In this document: in pieces, positions 1 through 31,954 of the stretch
Position numbering within the stretch: the first letter of the stretch is position 1
Layout of the letters: each line of letters opens with the position of its first letter
IMG/VR virus record: IMGVR_UViG_2526164667_000035
Strand: one strand, 5' to 3'
From: a virus
Taxonomy: Duplodnaviria; Heunggongvirae; Uroviricota; Caudoviricetes
Length of the DNA stretch: 41,051 nt
The notes under the pieces: generated by a model
Databases searched by the model: none
Seen by the model: only the letters and a program-made list of their open reading frames with translations
What the model was told of the DNA's origin: nothing
Made by a program: the position numbers and the translations under genes

Positions 1-286
1 TGGGAAGCGTTGCCTGCGCTTTTATCCGGATTTACAGCAGGGAAAGCCTCCAGTGCGCAAGTCAATAAGGTTATTCGGCAGGCCAGCTTTATTGCTGCAG
101 CTCTGGCCCAGTTTGTAAGTGATAAAACGCAACGGGATGTGCTTGATAATGGTGATCTGCCCGGTTTTGTTGAATTGCTGGGATCGGGGTTTGCTGTTGA
201 ATACCTGAGCCGCAAGAATCCGTTTGGCGATATCAAATCGGATGGCACGGTGAAAACGGCTCTCGAAAACCTTGGTTTGGGAGAAG
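1..286. repeat. Right copy of a long inverted repeat; exact reverse complement of 1878..2163 (runs to the window edge, so true length may be greater)
   Basis: Direct comparison: bases 1..286 equal the reverse complement of 2163..1878 with no mismatch; identity ends at 287/1877. Confidence 0.9.
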
Positions 287-354
287 CCAGATATGTCATT
301 CAGCGAGAGCTAATGCCAATGGTGCGTGGATACGCTGGTCAGATGGTGCAATAG
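10..354 (+). CDS. Partial (5' truncated by window edge) duplicate of the tail-fibre N-terminal constant region carried in the inverted repeat, followed by a 22-codon unrelated tail; probably not an independent gene
   Basis: Translation is identical to residues ~32-119 of the 1387..2247 tail fibre up to GLGE, then diverges (ARYVIQ...) and stops after 22 codons. Confidence 0.45.
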
Positions 355-614
355 AAGTCTTTGGAACGGGGGGTTCTAATGATAATGGACTGGCTAAAGT
401 CGTTTATCCAATTGCGCTACCTAAGCTTTCACGTTTTATCAGCATAGCGGAAAGAATAGGAACGGATTATGGGGGCACATCTAATAACGTTCACGTTTCA
501 ATGATCGTGGATGACCAGGTCACTAATACCGGTTTTTATGTCCGCTGCCAGATGTACGACGGAACACCATCAACAAGTGCTTTTTCCTGGAGGGTTTATT
601 GTGCGCCTGTTTAA
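201..614 (+). pseudogene. Cryptic alternative tail-fibre tip domain (Sv-prime-like), open in a frame offset by one base from the constant region; no ATG start
   Basis: Stop-free frame from 201 to TAA at 612-614 encodes ...[34 protein letters not shown]...QMYDGTPSTSAFSWRVYCAPV, a pattern typical of receptor-binding fibre tips; missing from the ORF track because it has no long M-initiated segment. Confidence 0.4.
260..285. other. Candidate 26-bp DNA-invertase crossover site (hix/gix/cix/pix-like), right copy
   Basis: ctctcgaaaacc-tt-ggtttgggagaa: two imperfect inverted 12-bp half-sites around a 2-bp core, resembling Hin/Gin-family sites as I recall them (half-site ending AAAACC). Sits at the inner end of the inverted repeat. 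Confidence 0.6.
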
Positions 615-798
615 TCCTGTTACTTTGACTGAAGTAATCCCCGGTCTTCATGACGTGACCGGGGCTGTTGAATTACCAGAAGATAACTGGTTTTTTACTG
701 CATCTGAAATCCCTGAAGGAATGGAAATATCTGTTAACGAGAAGGGAGAACCCATTCTGATTGAGATTAAACCGTCTCAGGAGGAACTGGCCAGATGA
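601..798 (+). CDS. Small putative alternative tail-fibre chaperone-like protein (U-prime position), 65 aa from a GTG start
   Basis: GGAGGG Shine-Dalgarno about 7 nt upstream of GTG at 601; convergent with the tfa gene and overlapping its 3' end by 32 bp, as at the centre of Mu G / P1 C segments. Short for a Tfa, so function is uncertain. Confidence 0.35.
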   Translation: MRLFNPVTLTEVIPGLHDVTGAVELPEDNWFFTASEIPEGMEISVNEKGEPILIEIKPSQEELAR

Positions 799-1372
799 CA
801 TCTGGCGCGGTGCTGGTATCTGTTGCCATCACCGCGTCAGTGTAATCCAGCACGGCGTTAAGTCGGGTGTTTTCTGCCTGCGTCAGCTTCCGTCCGGCCT
901 GTAATTTCAGTTGAATCAGACTGATGGAAGCCATTGCTGCATCAATCAGTGACTGGCGCTGTGCTTCTGCCGCTTCTACTGCGGCGCTATGCTGTGCCTC
1001 AGTATTCGTCCCCCATTTCTCACCATCCCATTTATCATATGGCGTTAACGGGGCGATAGTGGTTGTATTTTCAGGGTAATCACCCAGAGCTGTGATTTCT
1101 TTCGATTCTCCTGTTTCAGTGCTATAGATGATTTCACCGCGATGGTCTGGCACATATTCCCATGAGTTAAAATCTGCAGAACGGCAGATTGCATAACCAG
1201 CTTTATGTGTAACTGGTGCATCTAAACAAGAACATGCCGGGATGCCGACGCCAACCGCAAGATATTCAGTTGATGTGGAAAGATATTCCCGCGTCTTGCT
1301 GTCGTAGTTGTATATGACGACTTCACCCGCGACAGTCGCCAGTAGGGCCTCATTCAGTGTGACTGTATTCAT
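767..1372 (-). CDS. tfa: Tail fibre assembly protein (lambda Tfa / Mu U family)
   Basis: C-terminus ...DTSTAPDVIWPVPPETV matches the conserved Tfa C-terminal motif; immediately downstream of the tail fibre gene. Start moved to the internal ATG (MNTVTL...) preceded by GAGGA. Confidence 0.8.
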   Translation of the reverse strand: MNTVTLNEALLATVAGEVVIYNYDSKTREYLSTSTEYLAVGVGIPACSCLDAPVTHKAGYAICRSADFNSWEYVPDHRGEIIYSTETGESKEITALGDYPENTTTIAPLTPYDKWDGEKWGTNTEAQHSAAVEAAEAQRQSLIDAAMASISLIQLKLQAGRKLTQAENTRLNAVLDYTDAVMATDTSTAPDVIWPVPPETV

Positions 1373-1386
1373 GGTATCCTCGCGCA

Positions 1387-2247
1387 TTATGCCGCCCTCA
1401 CGATGTAGTTGAATGCAATATTACGAGGTCTGTTTTCTGTCGCTGTAGGAACAACTCTTGAGACATCCAAATTAGCGTAAATATGACGATCTGTCATAGA
1501 AACTGATGACTTACCAGTAGATTCAGCTTTTATCACAACGGAATCATACATTCCCTCATCATTCCCAAAAAATGCACCAGAGCCATTGCCAAAAAAATAC
1601 AGTGCTGATATTTCATGCCTTGCACCAATTGTCCCCGTGATATTTCTGATTGCATCTCCCTGAGAGTTCAATATAGTTCGGCCCGAATCAACCCCACGCC
1701 CGTCATCCCAGCCGCGAATAAATTCACCGCGTAAATCAGGCAATTTATTTGTCGGGTAAGCCTTTGCCAGTTCCGGGTATTCTTCAGCAGAAAAAGCCGC
1801 ACCATTGCATTTCAGCCAGCCTGTTGGCGGAGTGGCTGAAGGCCACGGAACAGGCACCCCAACAGGTAATGCTGAGCCTTCTCCCAAACCAAGGTTTTCG
1901 AGAGCCGTTTTCACCGTGCCATCCGATTTGATATCGCCAAACGGATTCTTGCGGCTCAGGTATTCAACAGCAAACCCCGATCCCAGCAATTCAACAAAAC
2001 CGGGCAGATCACCATTATCAAGCACATCCCGTTGCGTTTTATCACTTACAAACTGGGCCAGAGCTGCAGCAATAAAGCTGGCCTGCCGAATAACCTTATT
2101 GACTTGCGCACTGGAGGCTTTCCCTGCTGTAAATCCGGATAAAAGCGCAGGCAACGCTTCCCATTCCTCCTGCGACATAACATTGGCATTTTTACCCGTT
2201 GCGAATGCTTTAAAGTCATTTTTTGCCATCAGAGTAATACTCCCCAT
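1387..2247 (-). CDS. Tail fibre protein (constant N-terminal part within the inverted repeat, variable C-terminal tip 1387..1877)
   Basis: 286-aa ORF last in the baseplate operon; C-terminal region ([31 protein letters not shown]...) resembles phage tail-collar / fibre tip domains; followed by tfa. Confidence 0.8.
1878..2163. repeat. Left copy of the inverted repeat, inside the 5' part of the tail fibre gene
   Basis: Perfect reverse-complement match to 1..286. Confidence 0.9.
1879..1904. other. Candidate DNA-invertase crossover site, left copy
   Basis: Reverse complement of the 260..285 site, located within the tail fibre coding sequence at the constant/variable junction (after GLGE). Confidence 0.6.
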
Positions 2248-2251
2248 GCCC

Positions 2252-2908
2252 CTACATCAAAACCACTGATGAATTCGTTATCCATATCAAAACCAAAAAT
2301 TTTGAACCTTCCGATGGGGTTTCCACCGAAGGTGTTTCAATGCCACCCGCCCACACCCCGGCGGCTTTTACTGTGAGATATCCCTGTTTAATTGCAGCAA
2401 TTAACTCACGCGATACATCTGAAATATCAGTATCAGGAAAGACCCAGACCGATATCGTCATGTCCTGGTTATCGACTATCTGCATTCGCAGCCTGGATCC
2501 TGCTGTTGCCGCGTCAAGAATTACCGGAAGCGAATCATTCCGTCCGTCCCAGTTATTAATCGCAATCTTCGCTTTAAGAATGACACGATAAGTTTCATCG
2601 CTGAGATACATGTATCCAGAATCAGGATCATATGGCCCCTGCCATACACCCTGATCATATCCAAGCCCGTCGGTATCCCAGCTGAAATAGACACCTGAAA
2701 TAGGCTGGCTGACAACACGGCTACGTCCGATCCACAATCCCAGAATGTCAAGTTGCACACCAACCGCAGAGTCAATATCAAATGCAGTAATCAGCCCTCT
2801 GGTGGCCGCCGCAACATCAATAAGCGGCCGGGTCATCAGATCAACATGTGCAAGAAATTTAGGTTTGGTGGCGTGGTAGTTCGTGATTAGTTCGGTGTAT
2901 TTGCTCAT
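2252..2908 (-). CDS. Baseplate/tail protein, Mu gp48 / YmfQ (DUF2313)-like
   Basis: 218-aa ORF between the baseplate J-like gene and the tail fibre, the position of Mu gp48; tight packing with neighbours. Confidence 0.55.
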
Positions 2909-4104
2909 GACTCCACCGTTATAACGATATTTTCCGGGGTACAGGACGCAGATTCGTTATATCTGATATCAATGTTTGATGATGACAAAGCCCCCGGGGA
3001 TTTCCCAATCGTCAGTTCCTGAATATCGTAATAGCGTGCATTCCCGCCACTCACCACGCCAAGATTCGCCGGTGAGTAAATGCGACTTAAAAGGACCGAA
3101 TCACCAATCATCAGACTATTGATATAGTCGGAAATAGCCTGCTGGATCTGCTGCCCTATCTGTGAGGTATAACCCGTAAAAACTTTTAATTTAATCCGGG
3201 CATAAACAGGCACATCACTGGAACGCGAGAATTTGATTACATGGGGATTGCCGTATTTATCCGGAACCGTAACGGATGTTGTACCGTGAGTGGCTGTCCC
3301 CTGGCCTTTATTTCCTCTGATAGCCTGAGCAATATCCGTTACATCACCGCCATCCACAATTACAGCAACAGAGTGTGGCGGTAACCCGTTACCGTCCTCC
3401 GAACCAGTATCGTTTTCATAGAGTTTGTGGCGGGTTACACCGGTAACATTAGAAACAGCACCATCCAGTGCTTCAAATGGGGTTATTGATGGCAACGCAA
3501 CACTTTGCGACTGGCGGATACGTAACTCAGCGTCAGTTTCTGCCGGAGTGCCCACAGTAGCCGCAGCAGGATTAGTTACCGAAACCCAGCCACGGGTTGG
3601 CGTATTAATTTCAGTGATAGTTCCAGCCAGCGCCGCCACTGCACCTCTGACGGAACATTTTGCGGTCACCATCACTGTACCATCCACGCCGACCACCACT
3701 GAAGCAGGCAAACGCCATATCACATTATTACTGTCTTTCACGCTGCCATTAATGATGGTTGTTCCGGCAGTTCCTGTAAGAAGCAAATCAACCGTAGAAT
3801 TCGTCGCGCCTTTACGTGAAATACCATTTATTTTCACGTTACTGGTCAATGCAGCCCCATAGCCGGTTGCCGGTGAAAAACAGTTGTAGACAGTTATCGC
3901 CATATTATTGGCATCATGAATCGCCAGCGCCATCAGAGCCACCATCTGGCCGTCTTTGCTGTCCGGTTCGAGGTAGGCATCACTGCCATAAATCTGCTGA
4001 AAATAGCTAATCAGGGTGCTGAGTATCGTCTGATAATCAGGCGCACTGATCCCCTCCGCGGTTACCTTTGCAGATAAACCGAGAGAATCAAGGTTCAGAG
4101 CCAT
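2905..4104 (-). CDS. Baseplate J-like protein (Mu gp47 / P2 J family)
   Basis: 399-aa ORF, 4-bp overlap with downstream gene, conserved position upstream of the fibre genes. Confidence 0.7.
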   Translation of the reverse strand: MALNLDSLGLSAKVTAEGISAPDYQTILSTLISYFQQIYGSDAYLEPDSKDGQMVALMALAIHDANNMAITVYNCFSPATGYGAALTSNVKINGISRKGATNSTVDLLLTGTAGTTIINGSVKDSNNVIWRLPASVVVGVDGTVMVTAKCSVRGAVAALAGTITEINTPTRGWVSVTNPAAATVGTPAETDAELRIRQSQSVALPSITPFEALDGAVSNVTGVTRHKLYENDTGSEDGNGLPPHSVAVIVDGGDVTDIAQAIRGNKGQGTATHGTTSVTVPDKYGNPHVIKFSRSSDVPVYARIKLKVFTGYTSQIGQQIQQAISDYINSLMIGDSVLLSRIYSPANLGVVSGGNARYYDIQELTIGKSPGALSSSNIDIRYNESASCTPENIVITVES

Positions 4105-4457
4105 TACGCCTCCGATGTAACAGTCGTTATTCCATAGAGAGTGTCGATTTCAGCGGAAAACATGACACGTCGGGTCGTGGTATCCACCGTCGTATTGAAA
4201 GAGAGGATTGATTTAACGCCCCGCGTTTCGAGGATGCGCTTACGGATCGCCAGGTTGTAGGTTTCCGGCTTCTGCTTACCGAGTACGGACTGGATCCACG
4301 GAGTCCCCTCGGTGGTGTCGAGAAACCATTGCCCATACCACAATTCGAATCGCGTTTTTACCGCCTGCGCCACGGCCTCCGGCGAGTTAATCAGCCAGGT
4401 GTCATCACCGCTGCCAAAGGTGTAATCGCCATCGGCGTCTTCACGTCTGTATCGCAT
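4104..4457 (-). CDS. Baseplate wedge protein (gp25 / GPW-like, Mu gp46 position)
   Basis: 117-aa ORF between spike-like and J-like genes; start overlaps upstream stop (ATGA). Confidence 0.55.
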   Translation of the reverse strand: MRYRREDADGDYTFGSGDDTWLINSPEAVAQAVKTRFELWYGQWFLDTTEGTPWIQSVLGKQKPETYNLAIRKRILETRGVKSILSFNTTVDTTTRRVMFSAEIDTLYGITTVTSEA

Positions 4458-5209
4458 CAGTTTACCCCATCGGTATTGCTTCCACCGCGCTGAACACCGC
4501 CATGAGTGTGCGTATCATCGATTGGCTTGCCGTTAGCCTTCACGCTACCCAAAAACTCAACAGCACCAGTGATTTTTGAAGCCACACCAGAAACAACAGA
4601 CCCCACCATGCCACCCATCCAGGTTAACAGGCCATGAATGGTTACTTTCTCAGAAAAATCAGCCAGGGGGGCAACCACATCAAGCCCCCCCGGAGCGACA
4701 ATTTTAATTTTCCTGGTATCAGGATTAAGCTCAAAATAGGTGCTGCCGTCGTCACTACGCAACTGTGTGGCACTGGTATTAATACCGCTAATCTTCCTAG
4801 CCTGCGACTGGGGACCGACAATACAAAACGCATCCGATAAATCATGCATTCTGTCATCAACAGGCTCCTGTATCCCGCCGCTCTGCCACCAGAAATCAAT
4901 ACAACGATCGGCAAAAACGACAAGACACTCATCCCCGGCTTTTACCGGAAAAGTCAACGTACAGCCTCCGCCGCGCGGGAATACCACTGGCACATCCGCC
5001 AGCAATGGGTAATTTTTGGTAATGCGGTTACCGTAGTTATCCTTTTCAACCGAACGGATAGCTGGCTGCACAACCGCCGTCACCGCGTCAGGAGCGAATG
5101 ACTGAATAATGCCAGGCAAGGCGACGCGGATCTGGTTCTTTGTTGTTTCCCGCTCGGACTTGAATGTTTCGGCAAGGTCACCGCTACGAGTCTGGTCTGA
5201 TATGGCCAT
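4457..5209 (-). CDS. Baseplate spike / assembly protein V-like (Mu gp45 position)
   Basis: Start placed at internal ATG (MAISDQ...) with AGGAG about 7 nt upstream; the longer ORF start would overlap the terminator hairpin. Confidence 0.6.
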   Translation of the reverse strand: MAISDQTRSGDLAETFKSERETTKNQIRVALPGIIQSFAPDAVTAVVQPAIRSVEKDNYGNRITKNYPLLADVPVVFPRGGGCTLTFPVKAGDECLVVFADRCIDFWWQSGGIQEPVDDRMHDLSDAFCIVGPQSQARKISGINTSATQLRSDDGSTYFELNPDTRKIKIVAPGGLDVVAPLADFSEKVTIHGLLTWMGGMVGSVVSGVASKITGAVEFLGSVKANGKPIDDTHTHGGVQRGGSNTDGVN

Positions 5210-5225
5210 TTGATAAACTCCTGAA

Positions 5226-5250
5226 AACAAAAAACCCGCCAAGTGGCGGG
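5226..5250 (-). terminator. Rho-independent terminator closing the AT-rich island
   Basis: On the - strand: CCCGCCACUUGGCGGG hairpin (6-bp GC stem, 4-nt loop) followed by UUUUUUGUUUU. Confidence 0.6.
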
Positions 5251-5271
5251 TCTACAGGAACAACTCTAAGT

Positions 5272-5442
5272 TTATTTTTTCTGTTTAAAATTGTCCAACT
5301 CAGGTTCTTTAACGCTTTCTGTCATGTAATCCAATCCATCAAAAGGTACTTCAAGCATTATACTGCTTTCATAATCAGCCATGGATTGCTCTGCTTGCGT
5401 TGGCTTACTTTGCTGTGAGTTGTCATTATTTGATGTTGTCAT
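5272..5442 (-). CDS. Small acidic hypothetical protein (56 aa), last gene of the AT-rich island
   Basis: ATG..TAA ORF below the ORF-track size cutoff (MTTSNNDNSQQSKPTQAEQSMADYESSIMLEVPFDGLDYMTESVKEPELDNFKQKK); 3 nt downstream of the preceding stop; weak SD. Confidence 0.35.
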   Translation of the reverse strand: MTTSNNDNSQQSKPTQAEQSMADYESSIMLEVPFDGLDYMTESVKEPELDNFKQKK

Positions 5443-5445
5443 CAA

Positions 5446-6001
5446 CTATGCCTTATTTATCAAAAGAAAAGTAACCGATAATATGAAAAAACCGAAAGAT
5501 AACGCAATTCCTTCAAAAAGATAACGAGCATAAACTGCCTTTTCTTTATGAAGACTTTCGATCAATTCAACAGCTTTACCATACTGAAACATATGGTATC
5601 TAAGCGTTTTAATTTTATCACCGTAAAGTAAAAAATCATGCTCTTCTTTTCGCTTATGAGTAGGCATTTTTGGTATATCTTTCAGTCCCCAAGTACGCCA
5701 TAGGAAAAAAAAAGCACATAACAATACAAACAAAGCACAGATATGCACAAAGTATAGATAATGTTAAAAACCAATTACTCTTTAGCCCACTTTTGAAATC
5801 AACAGTCCCAAATACAGCCAGTAGAGCAGAGGTTTCTACAGCTAAAATAGCAAGAAGGTAGTTAACTTTGTCCTCAAGACGACGATATGTTGATTTTGCT
5901 TCCTCATATCTATCTTTATAATATGACGAAATAAAATCAGCGCCTATAGTCTCAATTGCCTTTTGTTCTTCTGTTGTATCTATTGGCGAACGCTTGCTCA
6001 T
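5446..6001 (-). CDS. Hypothetical multi-pass membrane protein, split into two overlapping frames at a T9 homopolymer (frameshifted pseudogene or phase-variable gene)
   Basis: ORFs 5654..6001 and 5446..5748 overlap by 95 nt; both are hydrophobic across the overlap; a run of 9 T (- strand) at 5705..5713 sits at the junction; loss of one T would fuse them into about 184 aa. About 33% GC. Confidence 0.45.
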
Positions 6002-6008
6002 TTCTTAA

Positions 6009-6356
6009 TCAACCAACAACTTTCTTACACGGGAAAGAGCCAATAATTTTCGGAGCATCCATGCTGTTCTGCAACAACTGGACGTTCAGGAAACGCGTTT
6101 TAGTGCCCGGTCGATGGATATACTCGAACCCATAATTGTTGCCATCTTTGGCAGGCATCAGCTCCATTTTGATCTGCATGCCTGTACCGTCTTTACCCAA
6201 CATTTTTACTTTTTGGGACGTTACTGTTTCGCCATTGATTTTAAATAATGAGTCAGGGATCGCATCCATACGAAAGTTGCCGCATTGCATCGTTATGGTG
6301 TTTGCACTTACACCAACAGACACTAACGCCAGCAATGAAAATATCCATCGTTTCAT
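6009..6356 (-). CDS. Secreted/periplasmic hypothetical protein with Sec-type signal peptide (115 aa)
   Basis: Start at internal ATG (MKRWIFSLLALVSVGVSA-NT...) with GGAGAGG upstream; classic n-h-c signal peptide with AxA-like cleavage site; two Cys in mature part; lower GC than flanking tail genes. Confidence 0.55.
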   Translation of the reverse strand: MKRWIFSLLALVSVGVSANTITMQCGNFRMDAIPDSLFKINGETVTSQKVKMLGKDGTGMQIKMELMPAKDGNNYGFEYIHRPGTKTRFLNVQLLQNSMDAPKIIGSFPCKKVVG

Positions 6357-6358
6357 TT

Positions 6359-7423
6359 CTATAATCCTCTCCGCAAAGCAGTGCTGGATGGCATATCCTG
6401 CGCACCGCGCGCTTCGCACATCATATCCATGTACCACGCCTGGCCCCTTGTGTCGCCAGTGTACATAATCCCGCGCACAATATAAACGCCATCCGTTGCG
6501 ATGCTGGCAGGCTGCGCGGTGGTACCGCTGAGCGTGATATTTCCGTCCGTGTTCTGGTCGGTGATCTGCCCGCCGGCCATCGCGATATCGTTGTTCGACA
6601 GCGCGGTGCGGAATACTGAAGCCTGATCCAGCTGAATGAGCCCGTTAACCCGGATGTTCGGGTTAATCAGCGCGCGGACGTTTACGCCGTTGCCGATAGT
6701 CTGCTGTGGCATACCGATAAGCCCCGTGGCACTGTTGAGCACAATCGCGTCGTGAACATATTCGTTATTCGCTACCATCTGGCGCTGACCATCCACAAAC
6801 TGCCATGTTGCGCCACATTGTCCGGCCACGTTATCCATAAGATGACGTGTCATGCCGAATAGCACCTGGCCCCGGGGGAAAACGGTAGCAGGCATTTCAG
6901 GCGTCAGACCTTCAGTCGCGCCTTTGGCCTCGAAGTCTTTCATCAGCGCGCGATTCACGTCTGCGACCGTATAACCGGCCGCCAGCGTCTGCGAAGTTAT
7001 GCTGGTGGCAAAAGCCAGATCAGTATCTGCTGCCTGAATCAGGACGTAGGAATCAACCGGACTGTCTTTTCCTGTGACCGAGTAGCGAATTTCACCGCTG
7101 AAAATTAGTCCGTAGTTGCGGCCATCACTCTGGCCCACGTCCGCCGCGTCAACTTCCCGCACAGTCCCGACGTCGCTTGCCGACACCTCCGGCGCGATAC
7201 CGTCGTAACCCGCAATCAGACGCACTTTCGAAAATTCCTGCCCGGTGATTCGGTTCACAGTATCTGCCGAGAGGTTATAAATTTTGATAGTCCCTACCCG
7301 GGACGCACTGCTGATGTTGAACCAGTCGATCGTAAAGGTGACTTTAAAATCACTTAGCTCAATTCCCTGACCGTTCCCGTCCACAAGCTGCAGCTCGAAA
7401 TGTCTCATCCAGTTCTGTGACAT
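6359..7423 (-). CDS. Baseplate hub-like protein (Mu gp44 / P2 D-like position)
   Basis: 354-aa ORF downstream of tape measure and two small tail genes; assignment by size and synteny only. Confidence 0.5.
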   Translation of the reverse strand: MSQNWMRHFELQLVDGNGQGIELSDFKVTFTIDWFNISSASRVGTIKIYNLSADTVNRITGQEFSKVRLIAGYDGIAPEVSASDVGTVREVDAADVGQSDGRNYGLIFSGEIRYSVTGKDSPVDSYVLIQAADTDLAFATSITSQTLAAGYTVADVNRALMKDFEAKGATEGLTPEMPATVFPRGQVLFGMTRHLMDNVAGQCGATWQFVDGQRQMVANNEYVHDAIVLNSATGLIGMPQQTIGNGVNVRALINPNIRVNGLIQLDQASVFRTALSNNDIAMAGGQITDQNTDGNITLSGTTAQPASIATDGVYIVRGIMYTGDTRGQAWYMDMMCEARGAQDMPSSTALRRGL

Positions 7424-7425
7424 GC

Positions 7426-7728
7426 TTACTCCGTTGATACCAGTAAATGGCTGCGACTGCCCAGGTCAGTTTTCGTGGGATAATCCTGTGTGTTGTCATC
7501 GCAGACCACCAACAGCTTAAAACCAAGCCCCATACAGGCGTACTGCGCCAGCAGATCAGCGCCAGTGACGAGAGGAATACCGGAGATTACTGGCTCCCCT
7601 CTGTCATTCTGCAGGTCCATAATCCAGTACAGATCGCGCCATATGATGCTAATCCGCCAGGTGACACCGCCCAGGACGATGCTGAACTGCTGGTTGTCCG
7701 CTGTCAGCGGAATTTCCTGAATTGTCAT
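7426..7728 (-). CDS. Hypothetical tail protein
   Basis: 100-aa ORF tightly packed in the tail operon. Confidence 0.4.
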   Translation of the reverse strand: MTIQEIPLTADNQQFSIVLGGVTWRISIIWRDLYWIMDLQNDRGEPVISGIPLVTGADLLAQYACMGLGFKLLVVCDDNTQDYPTKTDLGSRSHLLVSTE

Positions 7729-8315
7729 TAGCCGCCTCCCAGTAATGACGCCACGTTACCCGTAATGCTTTTCAGCAGTGAAGTATCTGGAGGCTTTGTG
7801 GTTTTGTTGCCGCTATTCTGTACCGCCGACGTGCTGGCCCCTTCCTTCATGTTGGTTTTATCCGCGACGGTAATCTGCTGTGTCCGGGAGATAAGGACCT
7901 CCCTCAGGGTAAGGACGGCGGACAGGACATTTTCGGTTGTCTTGTCCGTCGTCACTTCCAGCGCCCGGATCAACATGTTGCTGTACAGCCGTTTACCGGT
8001 TACCACATCGAAGGGGATACGGCTTTCCTGCAGATCCAGTAGCTCCTGATACGTCTGCTGAGGACTCAGGCCGAGCAGGCTGGTAGCCGTCAGGTTACTG
8101 GCAAAATCCAGCAATGTGCCGCCACCGGCGAAACCAACCTCCATCACCACTTCTGACGGTTTTTTATAGGCATGATCAGCGACAGCAGCCCCGACCTCTA
8201 CCGGATGCTCGGTTATTTCAAGCATATCTGTATGCTTCTCTGAAATAACAACACTGGGAACAATCATTCCTATTTTTCTGCTCTGCTGATGAAAAAGTGT
8301 AGAGAGAATATCCAC
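7728..8315 (-). CDS. Hypothetical tail protein (position of Mu DNA-circulation / P2 U-like protein)
   Basis: 195-aa ORF immediately after tape measure; start overlaps upstream stop. Confidence 0.4.
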   Translation of the reverse strand: MDILSTLFHQQSRKIGMIVPSVVISEKHTDMLEITEHPVEVGAAVADHAYKKPSEVVMEVGFAGGGTLLDFASNLTATSLLGLSPQQTYQELLDLQESRIPFDVVTGKRLYSNMLIRALEVTTDKTTENVLSAVLTLREVLISRTQQITVADKTNMKEGASTSAVQNSGNKTTKPPDTSLLKSITGNVASLLGGG

Positions 8316-10303
8316 TAACCCACCCTCACCTGATTACTTCGCATGACCTGAGCATTTGCAGACTGTTGCCGACGTGCAATCTCATTACCGACAGCGTGCG
8401 GATCTCCGCCACCGTAAATGTGGTAGGTATTTTGCTGGTTAACCTCTGTCATTTTGCCACTAATTCCCGCCACGGCAGCCTTATTAATCAGCTCTCGAGA
8501 ATAGATATTTCTTCCATTTTCATGCTGGATAATGCTGCTCATCAATGCTGACATGGTTTTCGGATCGCTCATATTCAGGGCAGCCCGGGGATCCACTCCC
8601 AGTCGTTGCGATACAGCCCTGATATACGCAGTTGTGTTGTTATTATCAGAGGCAGGTGCCCAGGTAGAGATAATTTTTTCCACACTGTTTATTCCTCGCC
8701 CGGCGTACAACATTAACTGACGAGCAAGAGCCCGTAATCCATCAAAGGCAGTTTCAAATCTGGCAAATCGCCCGCCCGGGTGTTCAAGAGAAGCCCCCGC
8801 CTGACCAGCAAAATTAAGGTTTCCCGGATTGTTATTCCGCTCTCCTCGTTTCGTAGCCTGTGCATGTTGTTCCGGCTCATCATCACCAAACCAGCCGCGT
8901 ACCGTCCGGCCCACACTGCGGGGATCGAATCCCCAGTGCTCTTTAATCCAGTCGGCAGTACTGTTAGCGCTGTCTGTAACCATCGGCATCGCTGACGGAT
9001 TTTCGCTGCCCTGATTAAGTATCTGTTTGCCGATGCTGACGGCATCAGCCCAGCGTCCATCTTTGATAGCATTGAGCAGGTCGGCGATCATGTTCAGCAT
9101 TTTGCTGAATTCGCCCATCTGGTCGATGAAGTTGCTGAAATCCCACTTCAGGGACCATGATTTGGGGTCAATATTGAGTAGTTTCGCCAGCGCTTTCGCC
9201 AGATCGTTAACGGTCGTTTTAAGGTCACGAACCATCTTCAGCGCGGCATCGACCTCCGGTTTCCACTTGCCCCAGTCAATCAGGCTGTCGCCGCCTTCCT
9301 TCCAGGTCTGATAGTCCTCCCACAGGAGGGCAATCCCCGCCGCCAGCGCGGTAATGAGGCCAACCGGCGACATCCAGAACGTACTGTTCAGAATGCGCAG
9401 CGCAATCGTCAGTGCGCCAAACAGCGAGATCAACTCCCGCGTTTGCTTATCCAGCGATTGCCACCAGGTGATAAGGCCTGATGTCCCCTCAATCAGTCTG
9501 AAGAACAGCCGCCCGATAATATCCCCGAGCGCCAGAATGCCTTTTATGGCTTTCGTCAGGGTCTGCTCGATACGAGGGAAGTTGTCCAGGATATGGCGGC
9601 GCAGGGTGTCCAGCGAACCTGCAAGCCCACCCGCAAGATTAGAGCCGATTTTGTCACGGGCCATGCCTGCCATCGCGCTAAACTCACGCAAGGAGGTCAT
9701 AAATTTGTTGGAGCTTCTGGCCGCCTCGTCAGCATTGAAGCCGATAGCTTTCGCCATTGCGCTGTACTGCCCGGAGAAGCCACCCACACCCCGGCGCATC
9801 GCCATAAGGGTATTTTCGTCAATGCCCAGCATCTGCGCATACTGGTTAGCCCGGTAATACGGCATGCCGCTGAGCTTCTGGCCTACACCTGTAAAAATAG
9901 CGGCCATGTCACGCATGTTACCGCTGGCATCCCGTGTCTGTACCCCCAGGCGATTCAGAAATCCCTCTGCACCGGGATTATTACGAATAAACCGGGAGAG
10001 GCTTTCCAGAGAAGATCGCGCAGCGTCCACGCTGCCGCCAACCTGCGAAACCGCATAGCCAATAGACTGAATTCCCTGGACTGTCGCTCCAGTGCGCTGT
10101 GACGCCCAGTAAAGATTATCCAGACCGGAGGCGATCTTAGCCGTGAAGGCCACCACGGACAGCGCGGCTCCTTCAACGGCCAGCCCCATTTTGATGACAT
10201 TTGCAGTTGTACCGGCGAGGACAGAACCGAACTTTTTCGCTCCTGCATCATCCACACTGAAGCCAAGCGAGACGAGGAAATCTTTAATAGTTTCAGCGTT
10301 CAT
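8315..10303 (-). CDS. Tail tape measure protein
   Basis: 662 aa, largest tail gene, Ala/Gly-rich with predicted helical stretches, downstream of the chaperone. Start set at ATG (MNAETIK...) preceded by GGAGAGAGGA; the ORF-track start is an upstream TTG. Confidence 0.8.
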   Translation of the reverse strand: MNAETIKDFLVSLGFSVDDAGAKKFGSVLAGTTANVIKMGLAVEGAALSVVAFTAKIASGLDNLYWASQRTGATVQGIQSIGYAVSQVGGSVDAARSSLESLSRFIRNNPGAEGFLNRLGVQTRDASGNMRDMAAIFTGVGQKLSGMPYYRANQYAQMLGIDENTLMAMRRGVGGFSGQYSAMAKAIGFNADEAARSSNKFMTSLREFSAMAGMARDKIGSNLAGGLAGSLDTLRRHILDNFPRIEQTLTKAIKGILALGDIIGRLFFRLIEGTSGLITWWQSLDKQTRELISLFGALTIALRILNSTFWMSPVGLITALAAGIALLWEDYQTWKEGGDSLIDWGKWKPEVDAALKMVRDLKTTVNDLAKALAKLLNIDPKSWSLKWDFSNFIDQMGEFSKMLNMIADLLNAIKDGRWADAVSIGKQILNQGSENPSAMPMVTDSANSTADWIKEHWGFDPRSVGRTVRGWFGDDEPEQHAQATKRGERNNNPGNLNFAGQAGASLEHPGGRFARFETAFDGLRALARQLMLYAGRGINSVEKIISTWAPASDNNNTTAYIRAVSQRLGVDPRAALNMSDPKTMSALMSSIIQHENGRNIYSRELINKAAVAGISGKMTEVNQQNTYHIYGGGDPHAVGNEIARRQQSANAQVMRSNQVRVG

Positions 10304-10532
10304 TATCCTCTCTCCATTTCTCAATGCGCCGCTGGTTATCCGCTTTTACCGCCAGATGGTCATTCAAAAGAGCAATATCGTACAAATCGACAGAGCCATC
10401 TTTAAGTGCTGTATAAGGAATTAACCCGGCGTCAACCGGATTGAGAAGGTAGGACAGCCCGTCCGGCAGGCTGTTAAACGTCAGCCCTGTTGCAGGCTCT
10501 GCGTCGTGCTGGTAAGGGGTGTAGGCAAAAAA
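10293..10532 (-). other. -1 frame extension of the tail assembly chaperone (G/GT-type programmed frameshift product)
   Basis: Slippery run AAATTTTTTG at 10526..10535 (- strand, fits X XXY YYZ as A AAU UUU); the -1 frame is then open for 80 codons with no start codon, filling the gap up to the tape measure start. Confidence 0.55.
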
Positions 10533-23832: not shown

Positions 23833-24255
23833 TTATGCCGCCGAGCAGCTCCTACGCAAAGTCCTGATAGCCTGAGGCTTTGACTGAACCGACTGATCCA
23901 TTTCGAGCACCACATCCAGCATGGCTAAGCAACCGTCAATAAATCCCTCTGCCGCCTGAAGCCTCTTCAGAACGTGGGTGTGAGATACGCCGAGCTTCTC
24001 ACCCATCGCCCGCACGGGCATGGCCTGGACGTAATGCCACTCAAGGAGCGTGCACAGATACGGATCTTTTTTCTTCAGGCAGCTCATAGCGGAGTTGATG
24101 ATAAGACCGTCATTGTCACTGCATTTCAGCCTTCCAGACTGCGTCGCGGGTAGCAGATTCTTAAACCCAGCTGCAACAGGAGGAAAGTAGACGCTACCAC
24201 CTTCACTCGCTGCCCAGCCACCCCAGCGCTCTAAAACCTGTTGAATATTACGCAT
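23833..24255 (-). CDS. Late-gene antiterminator Q (QuuD-like family)
   Basis: 140 aa; N-terminus MRNIQQVLERWGGWAA...AAGFK and ...KRLQAAEGFIDG... resemble small Q proteins of lambdoid prophages by recollection; canonical position upstream of lysis genes. Confidence 0.65.
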   Translation of the reverse strand: MRNIQQVLERWGGWAASEGGSVYFPPVAAGFKNLLPATQSGRLKCSDNDGLIINSAMSCLKKKDPYLCTLLEWHYVQAMPVRAMGEKLGVSHTHVLKRLQAAEGFIDGCLAMLDVVLEMDQSVQSKPQAIRTLRRSCSAA

Positions 24256-30712: not shown

Positions 30713-31261
30713 ATGAAACTGAAGCTGAACAATGTTCGTCTGGCCTTCCCGTCTCTGTTTGAAGCTAAAACTGTAAACGGCGAAGGCGATCCGCGTTTCT
30801 CCGCAGTATTTTTAATGTCTCCCAAACACCCACAACTGGAAGAAATCCGTAAAGCTATGAAGCAGGTAGCGAAGGAAAAATGGGGGGAGAAGTGGGAGTC
30901 CATTTATAACCAGCTGGAGAAAAAACTCAATCTGTGCCTGCATGATGGTGATGAAAAAGCAGAGTATGAAGGCTTTCCCGGCAATTTCTTCCTGAACGCT
31001 GCTAACAAAGCGCGCCCAGCTGTTCTTGATCGCGATCGTTCGCCACTAATTCAGGCTGATGGACGTCCCTATGCAGGGTGCTATGTAAACGCCGTTATCG
31101 ATATCTGGGCACAGGACAATAATTTCGGTAAACGCATTAATGCCTCACTCGGCGGAGTCCAGTTCCTGCGAGACGGCGATGCATTCGCTGGCGGCGGAGT
31201 GGCAAGCGCTGACGATTTCGACGATATCAGCGAAGGTGCTGATGCTGAAGCACTAATTTAA
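30713..31261 (+). CDS. DUF2815-like protein (phage single-strand DNA-binding-like)
   Basis: N-terminus MKLKLNNVRLAFPSLFE resembles DUF2815; sits between DUF2800 and the DNA polymerase as in known phage replication modules. Confidence 0.55.
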   Translation: MKLKLNNVRLAFPSLFEAKTVNGEGDPRFSAVFLMSPKHPQLEEIRKAMKQVAKEKWGEKWESIYNQLEKKLNLCLHDGDEKAEYEGFPGNFFLNAANKARPAVLDRDRSPLIQADGRPYAGCYVNAVIDIWAQDNNFGKRINASLGGVQFLRDGDAFAGGGVASADDFDDISEGADAEALI

Positions 31262-31312
31262 AAATATTCATCCCCCAGCTACGTGCTGGGGTATCTCATG
31301 AGGGAAAGGATA

Positions 31313-31954
31313 ATGTCACAGCCCGTATTAACTAATCACCTTAAAACTCAAATCATCAATAACGCACTTGAGAAAGCGGGTATCCCCAAACGTAAATCAG
31401 CACTACGAGCTGCTCGTGTTGAATGGGCCGAACGTGTTCGGCTTGCAGCTATCGGGGGCGTAGAGAAAGACGCTGAAATATTAAAAAATATAAAAAAGAT
31501 TGAATCCATGGTAACAAAAATCCCTGATTCATTAAAAACCAATAGTTCTTTAATTCGAAAAGATTGCTGCATATATCTCAATCTGGCTGGAGCCAGAGCA
31601 AACATTTATTTCAATGGCAACTACAGAGGTTATGAATCAGGAGCCCCCGAGCATATTAATAAAATAGCACCTGCAGAATTTACTCTACTTGGCGAAGATC
31701 CTCTGGTAACGGAGTTTTATAGCTTTGATGCTCTCTACACACAAATTAAAAGTGATGAAACCGAAATCATACAGAACGTCAGCGCGGCTCTAAATAAAGT
31801 TCGGACAGTAAAACGATTACTGGATGTATGGCCCGAAGCTAAAGAACTGCTTCCAACAGACGCACCGCCAGTCCCTTTAGCACCAGCAGTACATCGAGAG
31901 ACATTAAATGAAATGATAGGCCTTCCTACCAATACAGTGTCTGATACTCAATAA
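31313..31954 (+). CDS. Hypothetical protein, AT-rich (213 aa)
   Basis: Start at ATG with GAAAGGA SD; markedly lower GC than flanking genes; no motif recognised. Confidence 0.5.
   Translation: MSQPVLTNHLKTQIINNALEKAGIPKRKSALRAARVEWAERVRLAAIGGVEKDAEILKNIKKIESMVTKIPDSLKTNSSLIRKDCCIYLNLAGARANIYFNGNYRGYESGAPEHINKIAPAEFTLLGEDPLVTEFYSFDALYTQIKSDETEIIQNVSAALNKVRTVKRLLDVWPEAKELLPTDAPPVPLAPAVHRETLNEMIGLPTNTVSDTQ

What the first reader, a model, noticed from the sequence alone, without database searches (positions are those of the whole stretch)
5226..6361. AT-rich three-gene island with its own terminator inside the baseplate operon
Between the baseplate hub gene and the spike gene, normally adjacent in Mu-like tails, sits about 1.1 kb of much lower GC (roughly 33-45% versus about 55%). 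It encodes, co-directionally and tightly packed, a Sec-signal periplasmic protein, a multi-pass membrane protein and a 56-aa acidic peptide, then a strong terminator. None looks like a virion component. An envelope-targeted secreted plus membrane protein pair in a structural operon is the pattern expected of superinfection-exclusion or abortive-infection cargo, and I do not recognise these proteins.
Basis: partly seen in the sequence, partly recalled or inferred. Interest (0 to 1): 0.7.

Follow-up and report, generated by a model that had tools for sequence, protein, structure and literature searches.

The report
Prophage cargo slot with membrane-protein pair
The AT-rich stretch between the tail hub and spike genes of this E. 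coli prophage is a standing cargo slot holding one conserved secreted protein plus a swappable, uncharacterised pair (a membrane protein distantly like a known anti-phage pore-former, and a tiny acidic peptide), and the membrane gene is broken by a one-base slip in this copy.

Summary
The AT-rich block is real: 37.5% GC, the lowest 1.1-kb stretch in the 41-kb window. It is not one island but two nested modules on the minus strand.

ORF A (6356-6009) is a Sec-signal, two-cysteine, 8-stranded beta-barrel protein. It is not cargo. Homologues sit directly after the hub gene in E. coli, Salmonella, Klebsiella, Yersinia and Citrobacter relatives.

Only 5255-6008 is variable cargo. It holds B, a 3-TM, 184-aa protein with weak but repeated similarity to the PycTM pore-forming effector of Pycsar, and D, a 56-aa acidic peptide. 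B and D are adjacent in all 18 close loci examined. No cyclase lies nearby.

In this window B is split by a T9 run; most copies have T8. T7, T9 and T10 alleles all occur in public assemblies.

The terminator is not the island's own. The same hairpin precedes the spike gene in 13 of 14 relatives whatever the cargo, and the phage encodes a Q antiterminator.

Hub and spike were not adjacent in any of the ~25 relatives examined; other copies carry YafO toxin, DUF4282 or DUF2335 genes there.

Best reading: B-D is a cyclase-independent membrane toxin/effector plus small regulator, probably for phage exclusion or abortive infection. Function is inferred, not shown.

The parts
6359..7423 (-). Baseplate hub gene (354 aa), the upstream conserved flank
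   Evidence: Pfam E217_GP41 E=3.3e-5 and NCBIfam orf58_phage_fam E=2.8e-47. The SEN34 RefSeq record annotates the homologue as baseplate hub. Protein identity to the Salmonella, K. aerogenes and Serratia hubs is 82%, 83.5% and 62.5%.
6009..6356 (-). ORF A: 115-aa secreted protein of the STY1065/STY2022 family (phrog_3443). It has a signal peptide (residues 1-19), an 8-stranded beta-barrel, and conserved Cys25 and Cys110.
5255..6008 (-). The actual variable cassette (B+D), bounded by the homology breakpoints with relatives that carry other cargo
   Evidence: In blastn against L003, L004 and L027-L031, the spike-side flank matches up to window 5240-5254. The hub-side flank matches down to 6008-6019 in relatives that carry A.
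5654..6001 (-). B, N-terminal frame (115 aa as read here): conserved cytoplasmic helix (Y..RYEEAK..YRRLEDK.N), TM1 and TM2. It runs out of frame after the T9 run.
   Evidence: ORF list; alignment with intact alleles. This exact 115-aa product is seen on 12 public contigs.
5705..5713 (-). T9 homopolymer on the coding strand (A9 on the plus strand) inside the Phe-Phe-Phe codons of TM2. It is the site of the +1 frameshift and the only homopolymer of 8 or more bases in the 41-kb window.
   Evidence: T7 (105 aa), T8 (184 aa intact, more than 2,200 contigs), T9 (115 aa, 17 contigs) and T10 (106 aa, 69 contigs) alleles exist in public assemblies.
5446..5704 (-). B, C-terminal frame: the IPKMP loop, a cytoplasmic helix and TM3. 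It is in frame with the N-terminal part only if the run is T8.
   Evidence: AF2 on the intact protein gave pLDDT 79.5 with helices 9-65, 77-104, 118-126 and 129-183. Kyte-Doolittle TM segments are 46-69, 75-106 and 160-184.
5272..5442 (-). D: 56-aa acidic peptide (pI 4.2) with a YE..I...VPF(G/D)(D/G)L...TES core and a Lys-rich tail. It is always coupled to B.
   Evidence: phrog_18231 E=6e-44. Present immediately after every close B homologue examined: 4 genomic contexts and 14/14 IMG/VR loci. Similar short hydrophilic peptides follow 5 of 6 remote B-like genes.
5222..5253 (-). Intrinsic terminator (stem AGACCCGCC/GGCGGGTTT, loop ACTT, then a T-run) ending about 12 nt before the spike Shine-Dalgarno sequence. 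It is a conserved backbone feature.
   Evidence: A hairpin with the same or an equivalent stem at the same position occurs in 13/14 relatives with unrelated cargo; loops vary (ACTT, ACCC, TTCG, GGAT, TTAG) and Mulock has a different GC stem. It lies inside the conserved spike-side flank.
4457..5209 (-). Membrane-puncturing spike gene (250 aa from the ATG at 5209), the downstream conserved flank
   Evidence: Pfam PF18352 (N-terminal spike domain) E=3.8e-43 and the Apex motif.
23833..24255 (-). Q-type antiterminator of the same prophage. It is the likely means by which late transcription reads through the terminator at 5253-5222.
   Evidence: Pfam Phage_antitermQ E=5e-42; PGAP annotation in the 97%-identical ETEC-2264 prophage. 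Read-through itself is inferred.

Best explanation
Shown by the sequence and comparisons:
- The region between the hub and spike genes of this Q-antiterminated temperate myovirus (SEN34/Brunovirus-like, integrated between yfhH and yfhL in the near-identical ETEC-2264 copy) is a standing accessory-gene slot with a fixed layout.
- The layout is: hub, then a secreted or lipoprotein gene (here ORF A), then variable cargo, then a conserved intrinsic terminator, then the spike.
- The cargo here is a two-gene module. B is a 184-aa, three-TM, N-in protein with a highly conserved cytoplasmic juxtamembrane helix and an invariant Glu inside TM1. It is a distant relative of PycTM pore-forming effectors but has no cyclase partner.
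- D is a translationally coupled 56-aa acidic cytoplasmic peptide.
- In this window B carries a +1 frameshift in a T9 run.

Inferred mechanism:
- B is a membrane-permeabilising toxin or effector.
- D is its small protein partner, holding it inactive or triggering it, as the 56-aa SpoIISB does for the 3-TM toxin SpoIISA.
- Together they give the lysogen or infected cell abortive-infection or exclusion activity against other phages.
- The conserved terminator insulates the essential spike and wedge genes from any transcription of the slot in the lysogen. Q-modified polymerase reads through it during lytic growth.
- ORF A is a separate periplasmic, disulfide-tied beta-barrel kept linked to the tail-tip genes. 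It most plausibly acts in the envelope against superinfection or re-adsorption by phages of its own kind.
- Because of the frameshift, the module here is either off or expressed only at low level, through transcriptional slippage on the T9 run.
For: Slot architecture:
- 353/5426 complete E. coli genomes carry this hub/spike family, but only 21 have A+B+D.
- Alternative cargos are seen.
- Homology breakpoints lie at 5251-5254 and 6008-6019.
- The terminator is conserved regardless of cargo. Q is present.

B-D as a unit:
- D follows B in E. coli, Salmonella, K. aerogenes and Serratia, where B identity is 40-60%, and in 14/14 IMG/VR loci.
- Remote B-like genes are also followed by coupled 36-53-aa hydrophilic, Lys-tailed peptides. 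One such pair sits next to Tn7-like transposition genes.

PycTM link:
- The intact E. coli B (184 aa, T8 allele) hits PADLOC PycTM at E=9e-4.
- 10/17 close homologues hit PycTM models (best E 1.6e-5), and 16/55 remote homologues do (best E 2.7e-6).
- PycTM was the only PADLOC family matched by more than two of the 55 remote members, and the only family matched at all by the 17 close ones.
- Pfam PF18967 (PycTM) is precomputed on four Salmonella homologues.
- PycTM is described as a membrane-disrupting abortive-infection effector (PMC11224242).

Topology and conservation.

Foreign composition holds in every host: B-D is 34-37% GC against 51-63% for the flanks.

Recurrent inactivation at the T tract, with four length alleles, fits a costly or toxic membrane protein or on/off switching.

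ORF A: secretion signal, conserved cysteine pair, barrel fold and synteny. Other secreted proteins or lipoproteins replace it at the same position.
Against: - There are no functional data of any kind.
- The PycTM similarity is weak. It falls below Pfam thresholds and concerns a TM-rich protein.
- No cyclase is present, so the Pycsar signalling logic cannot apply as such.
- No sigma-70 promoter was found upstream of A or B. A is 2 nt from the hub stop, so the genes may be expressed only late in the lytic cycle. That fits a role in the phage's own cycle at least as well as lysogen defence.
- PADLOC did not recognise most alternative cargos, so 'defence hotspot' rests on a YafO toxin, a weak HEPN-like match and analogy.
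- B is absent from 50,697 GenBank phage records and from GTDB species-representative genomes, so it is sporadic.
- This window's copy is frameshifted.
- For ORF A, the idea of an inhibitor of the tape-measure lytic transglycosylase is not supported. The window's TMP has no Pfam SLT hit. Serratia has SLT but no A, while K. aerogenes has A but no SLT call.
Confidence: 0.5

Rival explanations
1. B-D is a plain toxin-antitoxin or addiction module. It is a membrane toxin plus a labile small protein antitoxin that stabilises the prophage, or is merely selfish, with no anti-phage role.
For: - The architecture matches SpoIISA (3-TM toxin) plus SpoIISB (56-aa antitoxin). The A5 profile gives a weak, non-significant hit to the SpoIISA chain 3o6q_A (E=0.074).
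- The same slot holds a YafO type II toxin pair in other E. coli.
- The two genes are tightly translationally coupled.
- Recurrent frameshifts in B, the putative toxin, rather than in D are what one expects when a toxin is costly.
Against: - In classic type II systems the antitoxin usually comes first. Here the small gene is downstream.
- TA modules and abortive infection are not mutually exclusive.
- The PycTM similarity points to defence effectors.
- No toxicity data exist.
Confidence: 0.2
2. The genes serve the phage's own lytic cycle. They would be late-expressed envelope proteins that tune lysis timing (holin or antiholin-like), help genome delivery or exit, or stop progeny from re-adsorbing to infected cells or debris, as Llp and Cor do.
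For: - No separate promoter was detected. A abuts the hub gene and B abuts A, so all are probably on the Q-dependent late transcript.
- ORF A is conserved and syntenic across the whole phage group, down to 31% identity. That is the pattern of a phage-beneficial gene, not random cargo.
- The first position after the hub always encodes an exported protein, even when the family differs.
Against: - The prophage already has a lambda-family holin, a GH24 endolysin and a further gene downstream of the endolysin in the lysis block.
- B-D is present in only 21 of 353 E. coli prophages of this family, so it is dispensable.
- B-like and peptide pairs also occur outside phages, for example next to Tn7-like transposition genes.
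- B gave no Pfam or PHROG hit to holin families.
Confidence: 0.17
3. B is an anti-defence decoy. As a phage-borne PycTM-like protein it would soak up cCMP/cUMP, or co-assemble with a host PycTM as a dominant negative, and so blunt Pycsar-type immunity.
For: B shows similarity to PycTM without a cyclase. It is probably expressed late from the phage tail operon.
Against: - Relatives occur on non-phage elements and as stand-alone genes.
- The conserved partner peptide D is unexplained by this idea.
- No evidence of nucleotide binding.
- The similarity is weak.
Confidence: 0.05
4. The region is decaying junk: AT-rich horizontally acquired DNA without current function, as the frameshift suggests.
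For: B is frameshifted in this window, and T7, T9 and T10 alleles are seen in about 90 public contigs. The DNA is AT-rich.
Against: - Intact B is seen on more than 2,200 contigs.
- B and D keep open frames and conserved motifs at 40-60% identity across four genera.
- A has 386 clusters with invariant cysteines.
Confidence: 0.05

Closest known systems
Pycsar effector PycTM (Pfam PF18967; PADLOC PDLC02363-65)
   Same: Similar size (about 165-185 aa). Both have a cytoplasmic helix running into TM helices. There are weak but repeated HMM matches covering residues 31-140. PycTM is a membrane-disrupting abortive-infection effector (PMC11224242).
   Different: No PycC cyclase lies in the prophage or near any of the 9 homologue contexts inspected. 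The similarity is below curated thresholds. B is instead always paired with a small acidic peptide, so its activation logic must differ.
SpoIISA/SpoIISB toxin-antitoxin of Bacillus subtilis (from my own knowledge; PDB 3O6Q)
   Same: A three-TM membrane toxin with a cytoplasmic helical part, plus a hydrophilic partner protein of about 56 aa encoded next to it.
   Different: No significant sequence similarity (E=0.074). SpoIISA is larger (248 aa). The host range and genomic setting differ. Gene order and regulation were not compared.
Phage morons in late operons, such as the HK97 gp15 superinfection-exclusion moron (Hendrix/Juhala concept; Cumby et al. 2012; from my own knowledge)
   Same: AT-rich accessory genes inserted between tail genes, present in some relatives and absent in others, ending at a terminator. 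An inner-membrane protein is the product.
   Different: No own promoter was detected. The terminator is a fixed part of the slot shared by all cargos. There is no sequence similarity to gp15. The slot was occupied in every relative examined.
T4 Imm (membrane) plus Spackle (periplasmic) superinfection exclusion; T5 Llp and phi80/N15 Cor lipoproteins linked to tail genes (from my own knowledge)
   Same: An exported protein and a membrane protein encoded by a phage. Llp and Cor precedent exists for exclusion genes kept next to the tail-tip or receptor-binding genes they must match.
   Different: No sequence or fold similarity was found. ORF A is a beta-barrel with an SPase I signal, not a lipoprotein, and not helical as Spackle is (from my own knowledge). 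A and B are not co-inherited.
PliC/MliC periplasmic lysozyme inhibitors
   Different: Avidins, the Cap15 barrel and a T6SS immunity protein score the same or higher. Sequence identity is 7-13%. The PliC/MliC signature motifs (SxSGAxY and YxxxTKG, from my own knowledge) are absent.

Membership tests
Pycsar anti-phage system | A pyrimidine cyclase (PycC) encoded next to the effector | tested here: not met
   No cyclase appears in the PGAP annotation of the 97%-identical ETEC-2264 prophage. No cyclase Pfam hit lies within 4 kb of B homologues in the 9 look-ups.
Pycsar anti-phage system | The effector belongs to the PycTM family (PF18967 / PADLOC PycTM HMMs) | tested here: inconclusive
   PADLOC gave E=9e-4 for the intact E. 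coli B (T8 allele), a best of 1.6e-5 among 17 close homologues and 2.7e-6 among 55 remote ones. The local Pfam scan gave no PF18967 hit at E<=1. Only precomputed or 'faint' hits exist.
Pycsar anti-phage system | The effector is gated by cCMP or cUMP | not testable with these tools
   This needs binding or activity assays.
Phage moron (Hendrix/Juhala sense) | Present in some phages and absent at the same position in close relatives | tested here: met
   B+D is in 21 of 353 E. coli prophages of this family. Other cargo occupies the same breakpoints. This is not met for ORF A, which is conserved.
Phage moron (Hendrix/Juhala sense) | Base composition differs from the surrounding genes | tested here: met
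   34.4% GC against 51-55% for the flanks; the lowest in the window. The same holds in other hosts.
Phage moron (Hendrix/Juhala sense) | Own promoter upstream and own terminator downstream | tested here: inconclusive
   No sigma-70-like site lies upstream of A or B on the minus strand, but this was a simple consensus scan only. A terminator is present but is shared by the slot in all relatives.
STY1065/STY2022 family (phrog_3443), for ORF A | Full-length sequence match to the family | tested here: met
   phrog_3443 E=1.4e-51 over residues 1-114 of 115. PGAP gives this name to a near-identical E. coli allele of ORF A (WP_000832849). The local NCBIfam HMM library had no model for it.
PliC/MliC lysozyme inhibitors, for ORF A | 8-stranded barrel with the family's conserved loop motifs | tested here: not met
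Holins | Match to a holin family and location in the lysis cassette | tested here: not met
   No holin family appears in Pfam or PHROGs for B. The prophage's holin and endolysin lie about 19 kb away.
SpoIISA-like membrane toxin with small antitoxin | Sequence homology to SpoIISA | tested here: inconclusive
   Profile against PDB: 3o6q_A at E=0.074, 15.8 bits, 39 residues. Only the architecture is alike.

The most novel reading that the evidence does not exclude
B-D defines an undescribed, cyclase-independent two-gene membrane immunity module. In it a PycTM-type pore-former is controlled by a roughly 40-60-aa acidic, Lys-tailed micro-protein instead of a cyclic nucleotide. The module is spread on prophages and Tn7-like elements, and in E. 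coli it is switched on and off by a hypermutable T7-T10 tract. Alongside it, the hub-adjacent exported protein (ORF A and its lipoprotein substitutes) would be a family-wide periplasmic self-exclusion factor that co-evolves with the tail tip.
Probability: 0.25. Interest if true: 0.65.

Novelty: new variant of a known kind. Interest (0 to 1): 0.48.

Why it matters
- If B-D is active, it shows that PycTM-like pore-formers can be used without a nucleotide-signalling enzyme, gated by a micro-protein. That would be a new control logic for a known effector class.
- It adds a well-defined, easily mined cargo hotspot (hub | exported protein | cargo | terminator | spike). The hotspot is present in about 6.5% of complete E. 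coli genomes and in Salmonella, Klebsiella, Serratia and Yersinia.
- Carriers include important pathogens: O55:H7 CB9615, O103:H2 12009 and ETEC H10407.
- The conserved terminator in front of an essential spike gene, together with a Q antiterminator, gives a testable model for how such slots are insulated in lysogens.
- The T-tract polymorphism may be a simple on/off switch for a costly membrane protein.

Tried and rejected
- Pfam, NCBIfam and PADLOC gave nothing for ORF A or D.
- PDB sequence profiles for the A and B families gave no significant hit.
- Foldseek of A against viral structures found nothing at E<=1e-3.
- The afdb50 fold library was unavailable.
- Rfam on 4400-7500 gave only sub-threshold hits caused by the terminator.
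- Literature searches for STY1065, 8xMP and SEN34 found nothing on these genes. Papers mentioning PycTM describe canonical Pycsar only.
- A profile search with A5 in the search for homologous proteins added little.
- The search for related loci with A5 failed for lack of a conserved stretch. With A2 on GTDB representative genomes it found nothing.
- I considered that ORF A inhibits the tape-measure lytic transglycosylase. I dropped it because the window's TMP has no Pfam SLT hit and A and SLT do not co-occur.
- I considered that the frameshift is a sequencing error. This cannot be excluded for this window. However, T7, T9 and T10 alleles recur in many independent assemblies and on two haplotypes.
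- Plus-strand ORFs in the region (84, 63, 59 and 110 aa) were rejected as spurious. It is the minus-strand frames that stay open and conserved at 40-60% identity across genera.
Full report
**1. What is in the sequence**

All genes in this part of the window are on the minus strand. In the direction of transcription the order is as follows:
- tape measure (10324-8315)
- Dit-like baseplate protein (8315-7728)
- plug (7728-7426)
- hub (7423-6359)
- ORF A (6356-6009)
- a membrane-protein gene B, read here as two overlapping frames (6001-5654 and 5748-5446)
- a 56-aa ORF D (5442-5272)
- a hairpin with a T-run (5253-5222)
- the membrane-puncturing spike (5209-4457), then the sheath initiator and baseplate J

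Composition:
- GC of 5226-6361 is 37.5%, against 50.6% for the whole window.
- It is the lowest of all 1136-bp windows (mean 50.7%, sd 4.0).
- B+D is 34.4%, ORF A 43.4%, hub 55.3% and spike 51.4%.

The hairpin has 9 pairs and folds at -20.2 kcal/mol (z = -3.2). It is followed by TTTGTTTTCA. The compositional anomaly, the tight co-directional packing, the exported protein, the acidic peptide and the terminator are therefore all real.

**2. The membrane gene is frameshifted in this copy**

- The island is found complete in 21 of 5426 complete E. coli genomes. These include O55:H7 CB9615, O103:H2 12009 and ETEC H10407.
- In 20 of them, B is one 555-nt ORF of 184 aa.
- The window and strain 2000-3039 have one extra T in a run that is T8 elsewhere. 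On the plus strand the run is A9 at 5705-5713. It is the only homopolymer of 8 or more bases in the 41 kb.
- The run encodes Phe-Phe-Phe inside TM2.
- Public assemblies contain four length alleles:
  - T8: intact, two exact variants each on at least 1000 contigs, plus others
  - T9: 115-aa product, on 12 + 5 contigs; the window's exact product is on 12
  - T10: 106 aa, on 69 contigs
  - T7: 105 aa, on 1-3 contigs
- T9 occurs on two different haplotypes. The tract is therefore a recurrent mutational hotspot.
- I cannot tell whether this reflects phase-variation-like switching, counter-selection of a costly protein, or (for this one window) a sequencing error.
- From established knowledge, runs of nine A/T cause transcriptional slippage in E. 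coli. A T9 allele need not be fully null; this is inference.

**3. It is two nested modules, not one island**

ORF A:
- In every related phage or prophage examined, hub and spike are separated.
- The gene directly after the hub is usually an ORF A homologue. Identities are 53-60% in vB_EcoM-606R2, SEN34, Yersinia YP3 and Klebsiella Mulock. They are 31-36% in more distant Klebsiella and Citrobacter phages with the same synteny.
- The family has 386 clusters at 90% identity across Enterobacterales. It matches phrog_3443 (E=1.4e-51). PGAP names it the 'STY1065/STY2022 family'.

Homology breakpoints:
- blastn between the window and relatives carrying other cargo places the spike-side flank up to 5240-5254, so it includes the terminator.
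- The hub-side flank runs down to 6008-6019, the ORF A stop, in relatives that carry A.
- In relatives that have a different first gene it runs only to about 6402.
- The swappable cassette is therefore 5255-6008, which is B+D only.

Survey of the slot:
- 353 of 5426 complete E. coli genomes carry the hub/spike family.
- Conserved-flank spans range from about 2.65 to 3.8 kb. In the 60 records listed the slot was never smaller than about 700 bp.
- Alternative cargos include a DUF4282 small membrane protein, a DUF2335 membrane protein, a YafO-family toxin with an upstream 190-aa gene, a weak HEPN-like protein with a 256-aa partner, and several unknowns.
- All slot genes are AT-rich relative to their flanks, in all hosts.

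**4. The terminator belongs to the backbone**

- The hairpin ACCCGCC-loop-GGCGGGT followed by T6-7 sits 20-22 nt before the spike ATG in 13 of 14 loci compared. These come from E. coli, Salmonella, K. aerogenes, Serratia and Klebsiella phages, with unrelated cargo.
- Loops vary: ACTT, ACCC, TTCG, GGAT and TTAG.
- Mulock has a different GC-rich stem (GCCCAC/GTGGGT) at the same place. YP3 has another hairpin.
- 13 of 14 IMG/VR loci also have it, about 195-220 nt after B.
- There is no room for a promoter between the T-run and the spike ribosome-binding site.
- The prophage encodes a Q-family antiterminator (window 24255-23833, Pfam E=5e-42; annotated in the 97%-identical ETEC-2264 prophage).
- I infer that late transcription reads through by Q antitermination. 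Any Q-independent transcription of the slot would stop there, protecting the lysogen from expressing tail genes.
- No sigma-70-like promoter was detected upstream of A or B. Expression in the lysogen is therefore unproven.

**5. ORF A**

- The N-terminus has a basic n-region, a 12-residue hydrophobic core and a V-S-A cleavage motif. The AxA column is conserved.
- Cys25 and Cys110 are invariant in 32 homologues. This fits a disulfide-tied periplasmic protein.
- AlphaFold2 with a 32-sequence alignment gives pLDDT 83 and an all-beta, 8-stranded model.
- There was no hit in the viral structure library or in PDB sequences.
- The C-terminal two-thirds (INGE.VTSQK ... MGLMPAKDGNNYGF ... RFLNVQLLQNSMDAPKIIGSFPCKK) is about 90% conserved across genera. 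The first strands are variable.
- Other exported proteins can occupy the same position:
  - in K. aerogenes, a 296-aa lipoprotein whose C-terminus is the A domain
  - in Serratia, an unrelated 224-aa lipoprotein, with a 241-aa counterpart in E. coli OkiPb01690
  - in an APEC strain, a 153-aa signal-peptide protein
- So the position always encodes an envelope protein. By analogy with T5 Llp and phi80 Cor, which are kept next to the tail genes they must match (my knowledge), I infer an envelope-level role against superinfection or re-adsorption.
- A specific idea, inhibition of a tape-measure lytic transglycosylase, is not supported.

**6. B and D are the real pair**

B:
- B homologues form only 22 clusters.
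- At 40-60% identity in Salmonella, K. aerogenes and Serratia they lie in the same slot.
- Each is followed within 1-13 nt by a 52-57-aa acidic ORF (pI 4.2-4.7). These share the motif YE..I...VPFGDL...TES and a Lys-rich tail.
- All 14 IMG/VR loci with B show the same arrangement.
- B divergence follows phage divergence but runs faster. Against Salmonella, B is 53% identical, the hub 82% and the spike 66%. Against Serratia the figures are 40%, 62.5% and 47%.
- The AF2 model (pLDDT 79.5) has long helices at 9-65, 77-104, 118-126 and 129-183. Hydropathy gives TM segments at about 46-69, 75-106 and 160-184, so B is N-in and C-out.
- Invariant residues cluster in three places:
  - the cytoplasmic helix before TM1 (Y27, R31, Y32, E34, Y39, R41-L42-E43-D44-K45, N47)
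  - TM1 itself (E56, S58)
  - after TM2 (P110, M112, P113), plus Y140 and K154

Relatives of B:
- An exhaustive profile search found 81 representatives with E<1e-3. Most are 160-190 aa and match end to end.
- Of seven look-ups among these (six distinct proteins), none is near a cyclase. In five of the six a 36-53-aa hydrophilic, Lys-tailed ORF follows directly, and several carry a TES[FY]-like motif. One pair sits next to Tn7-like transposition genes (tnsB, tnsC, tnsD).
- PADLOC PycTM models match 10/17 close homologues (best E 1.6e-5) and 16/55 remote ones (best E 2.7e-6). PycTM was the only PADLOC family matched by more than two of the 55 remote members, and the only family matched at all by the 17 close ones.
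- Pfam PF18967 (PycTM) appears only as precomputed or faint hits.
- PycTM is the membrane-disrupting receptor/effector of Pycsar (PMC11224242).

Conclusion for B and D:
- B is a probable distant relative of PycTM.
- The locus fails the defining test for Pycsar because it has no cyclase.
- The partner is a micro-protein instead. Architecturally this resembles the SpoIISA (3-TM toxin) / SpoIISB (56 aa) pair, but the sequence hit is not significant (E=0.074).

**7. Best explanation and rivals**

- Best supported (about 0.5): B is a membrane-permeabilising effector or toxin. D is its small regulator. The pair is accessory cargo that gives exclusion or abortive infection. This copy is off or leaky because of the T9 run.
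- Rival (about 0.2): a plain toxin-antitoxin or addiction module.
- Rival (about 0.17): a late-expressed function in the phage's own cycle. The absence of a detectable promoter and the family-wide conservation of A favour this for A in particular.
- Rival (about 0.05): an anti-Pycsar decoy.
- Rival (about 0.05): decaying junk, which the conservation of open frames across genera argues against.
- All functional statements are inference. The anatomy, distribution and synteny are shown.

**8. Novelty and verdict**

- Morons in tail operons, prophage defence hotspots and PycTM effectors are all known.
- I found no description of the following in the libraries or papers available:
  - the fixed hub | exported protein | cargo | terminator | spike layout
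  - the cyclase-less PycTM-like protein paired with a micro-protein
  - the T7-T10 tract
- I rate this a new variant of a known kind, of moderate interest. It is a good, cheap experimental target rather than a surprise.

Noticed in passing
window 5705-5713: The homopolymer inside B exists as T7, T8, T9 and T10 alleles in public assemblies. T10 is on 69 contigs, T9 on 17, and T8 on more than 2,200. It is the only run of 8 or more bases in the 41-kb window. It may be an on/off switch or a site of transcriptional slippage.
   Followed up: partly
window 5222-5253 and 23833-24255: A strong intrinsic terminator sits immediately before the essential spike gene in nearly all relatives, and the prophage encodes a Q antiterminator. 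This implies that the late tail operon depends on antitermination in its middle.
   Followed up: partly
window 1-1700: Window 1-286 aligns in inverted orientation to the ETEC-2264 prophage, and 789-1309 aligns at only 90%. That region in ETEC-2264 holds pinE, gp53-like tail-fibre fragments and two opposed tail-fibre assembly genes. This looks like a Pin/Gin-type invertible host-range segment caught in the other orientation.
   Followed up: no
L016:3098-3988 (K. aerogenes) and L017:3695-3988: In K. aerogenes the ORF A barrel domain is the C-terminus of a 296-aa lipoprotein. A sister assembly calls only the 97-aa domain. This is a domain fusion of the conserved exported protein.
   Followed up: partly
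L003:3715-4779 (phage vB_EcoM-606R2, ON470579.1): In this GenBank record the hub gene is annotated as two CDS (212 + 139 aa), where relatives have one 354-aa gene. It is probably a frameshift or a sequencing error.
   Followed up: no
L006:3118-3351 (SEN34_20): The SEN34 RefSeq annotation of the ORF A homologue (77 aa) lacks the signal peptide. tblastn aligns residues 1-113, so the annotated start is probably too far downstream.
   Followed up: partly
L023:4001-4701: A remote B-like gene plus a 53-aa coupled ORF lies directly next to tnsD/tniQ, tnsC and tnsB of a Tn7-like transposon, which is a typical cargo position.
   Followed up: no
window ~26500 and ~31000-31500: These are two further stretches with GC below 42% in 1.1-kb windows. 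In the aligned ETEC-2264 record they fall around the replication/regulatory region and near small hypothetical genes. They may be further accessory genes.
   Followed up: no
window 8315-10324: The window's tape-measure protein gave no Pfam SLT hit. The Salmonella and Serratia orthologues carry precomputed SLT (PF01464) hits. Its C-terminal ...ERNNNPGNLNF... domain is unassigned.
   Followed up: no
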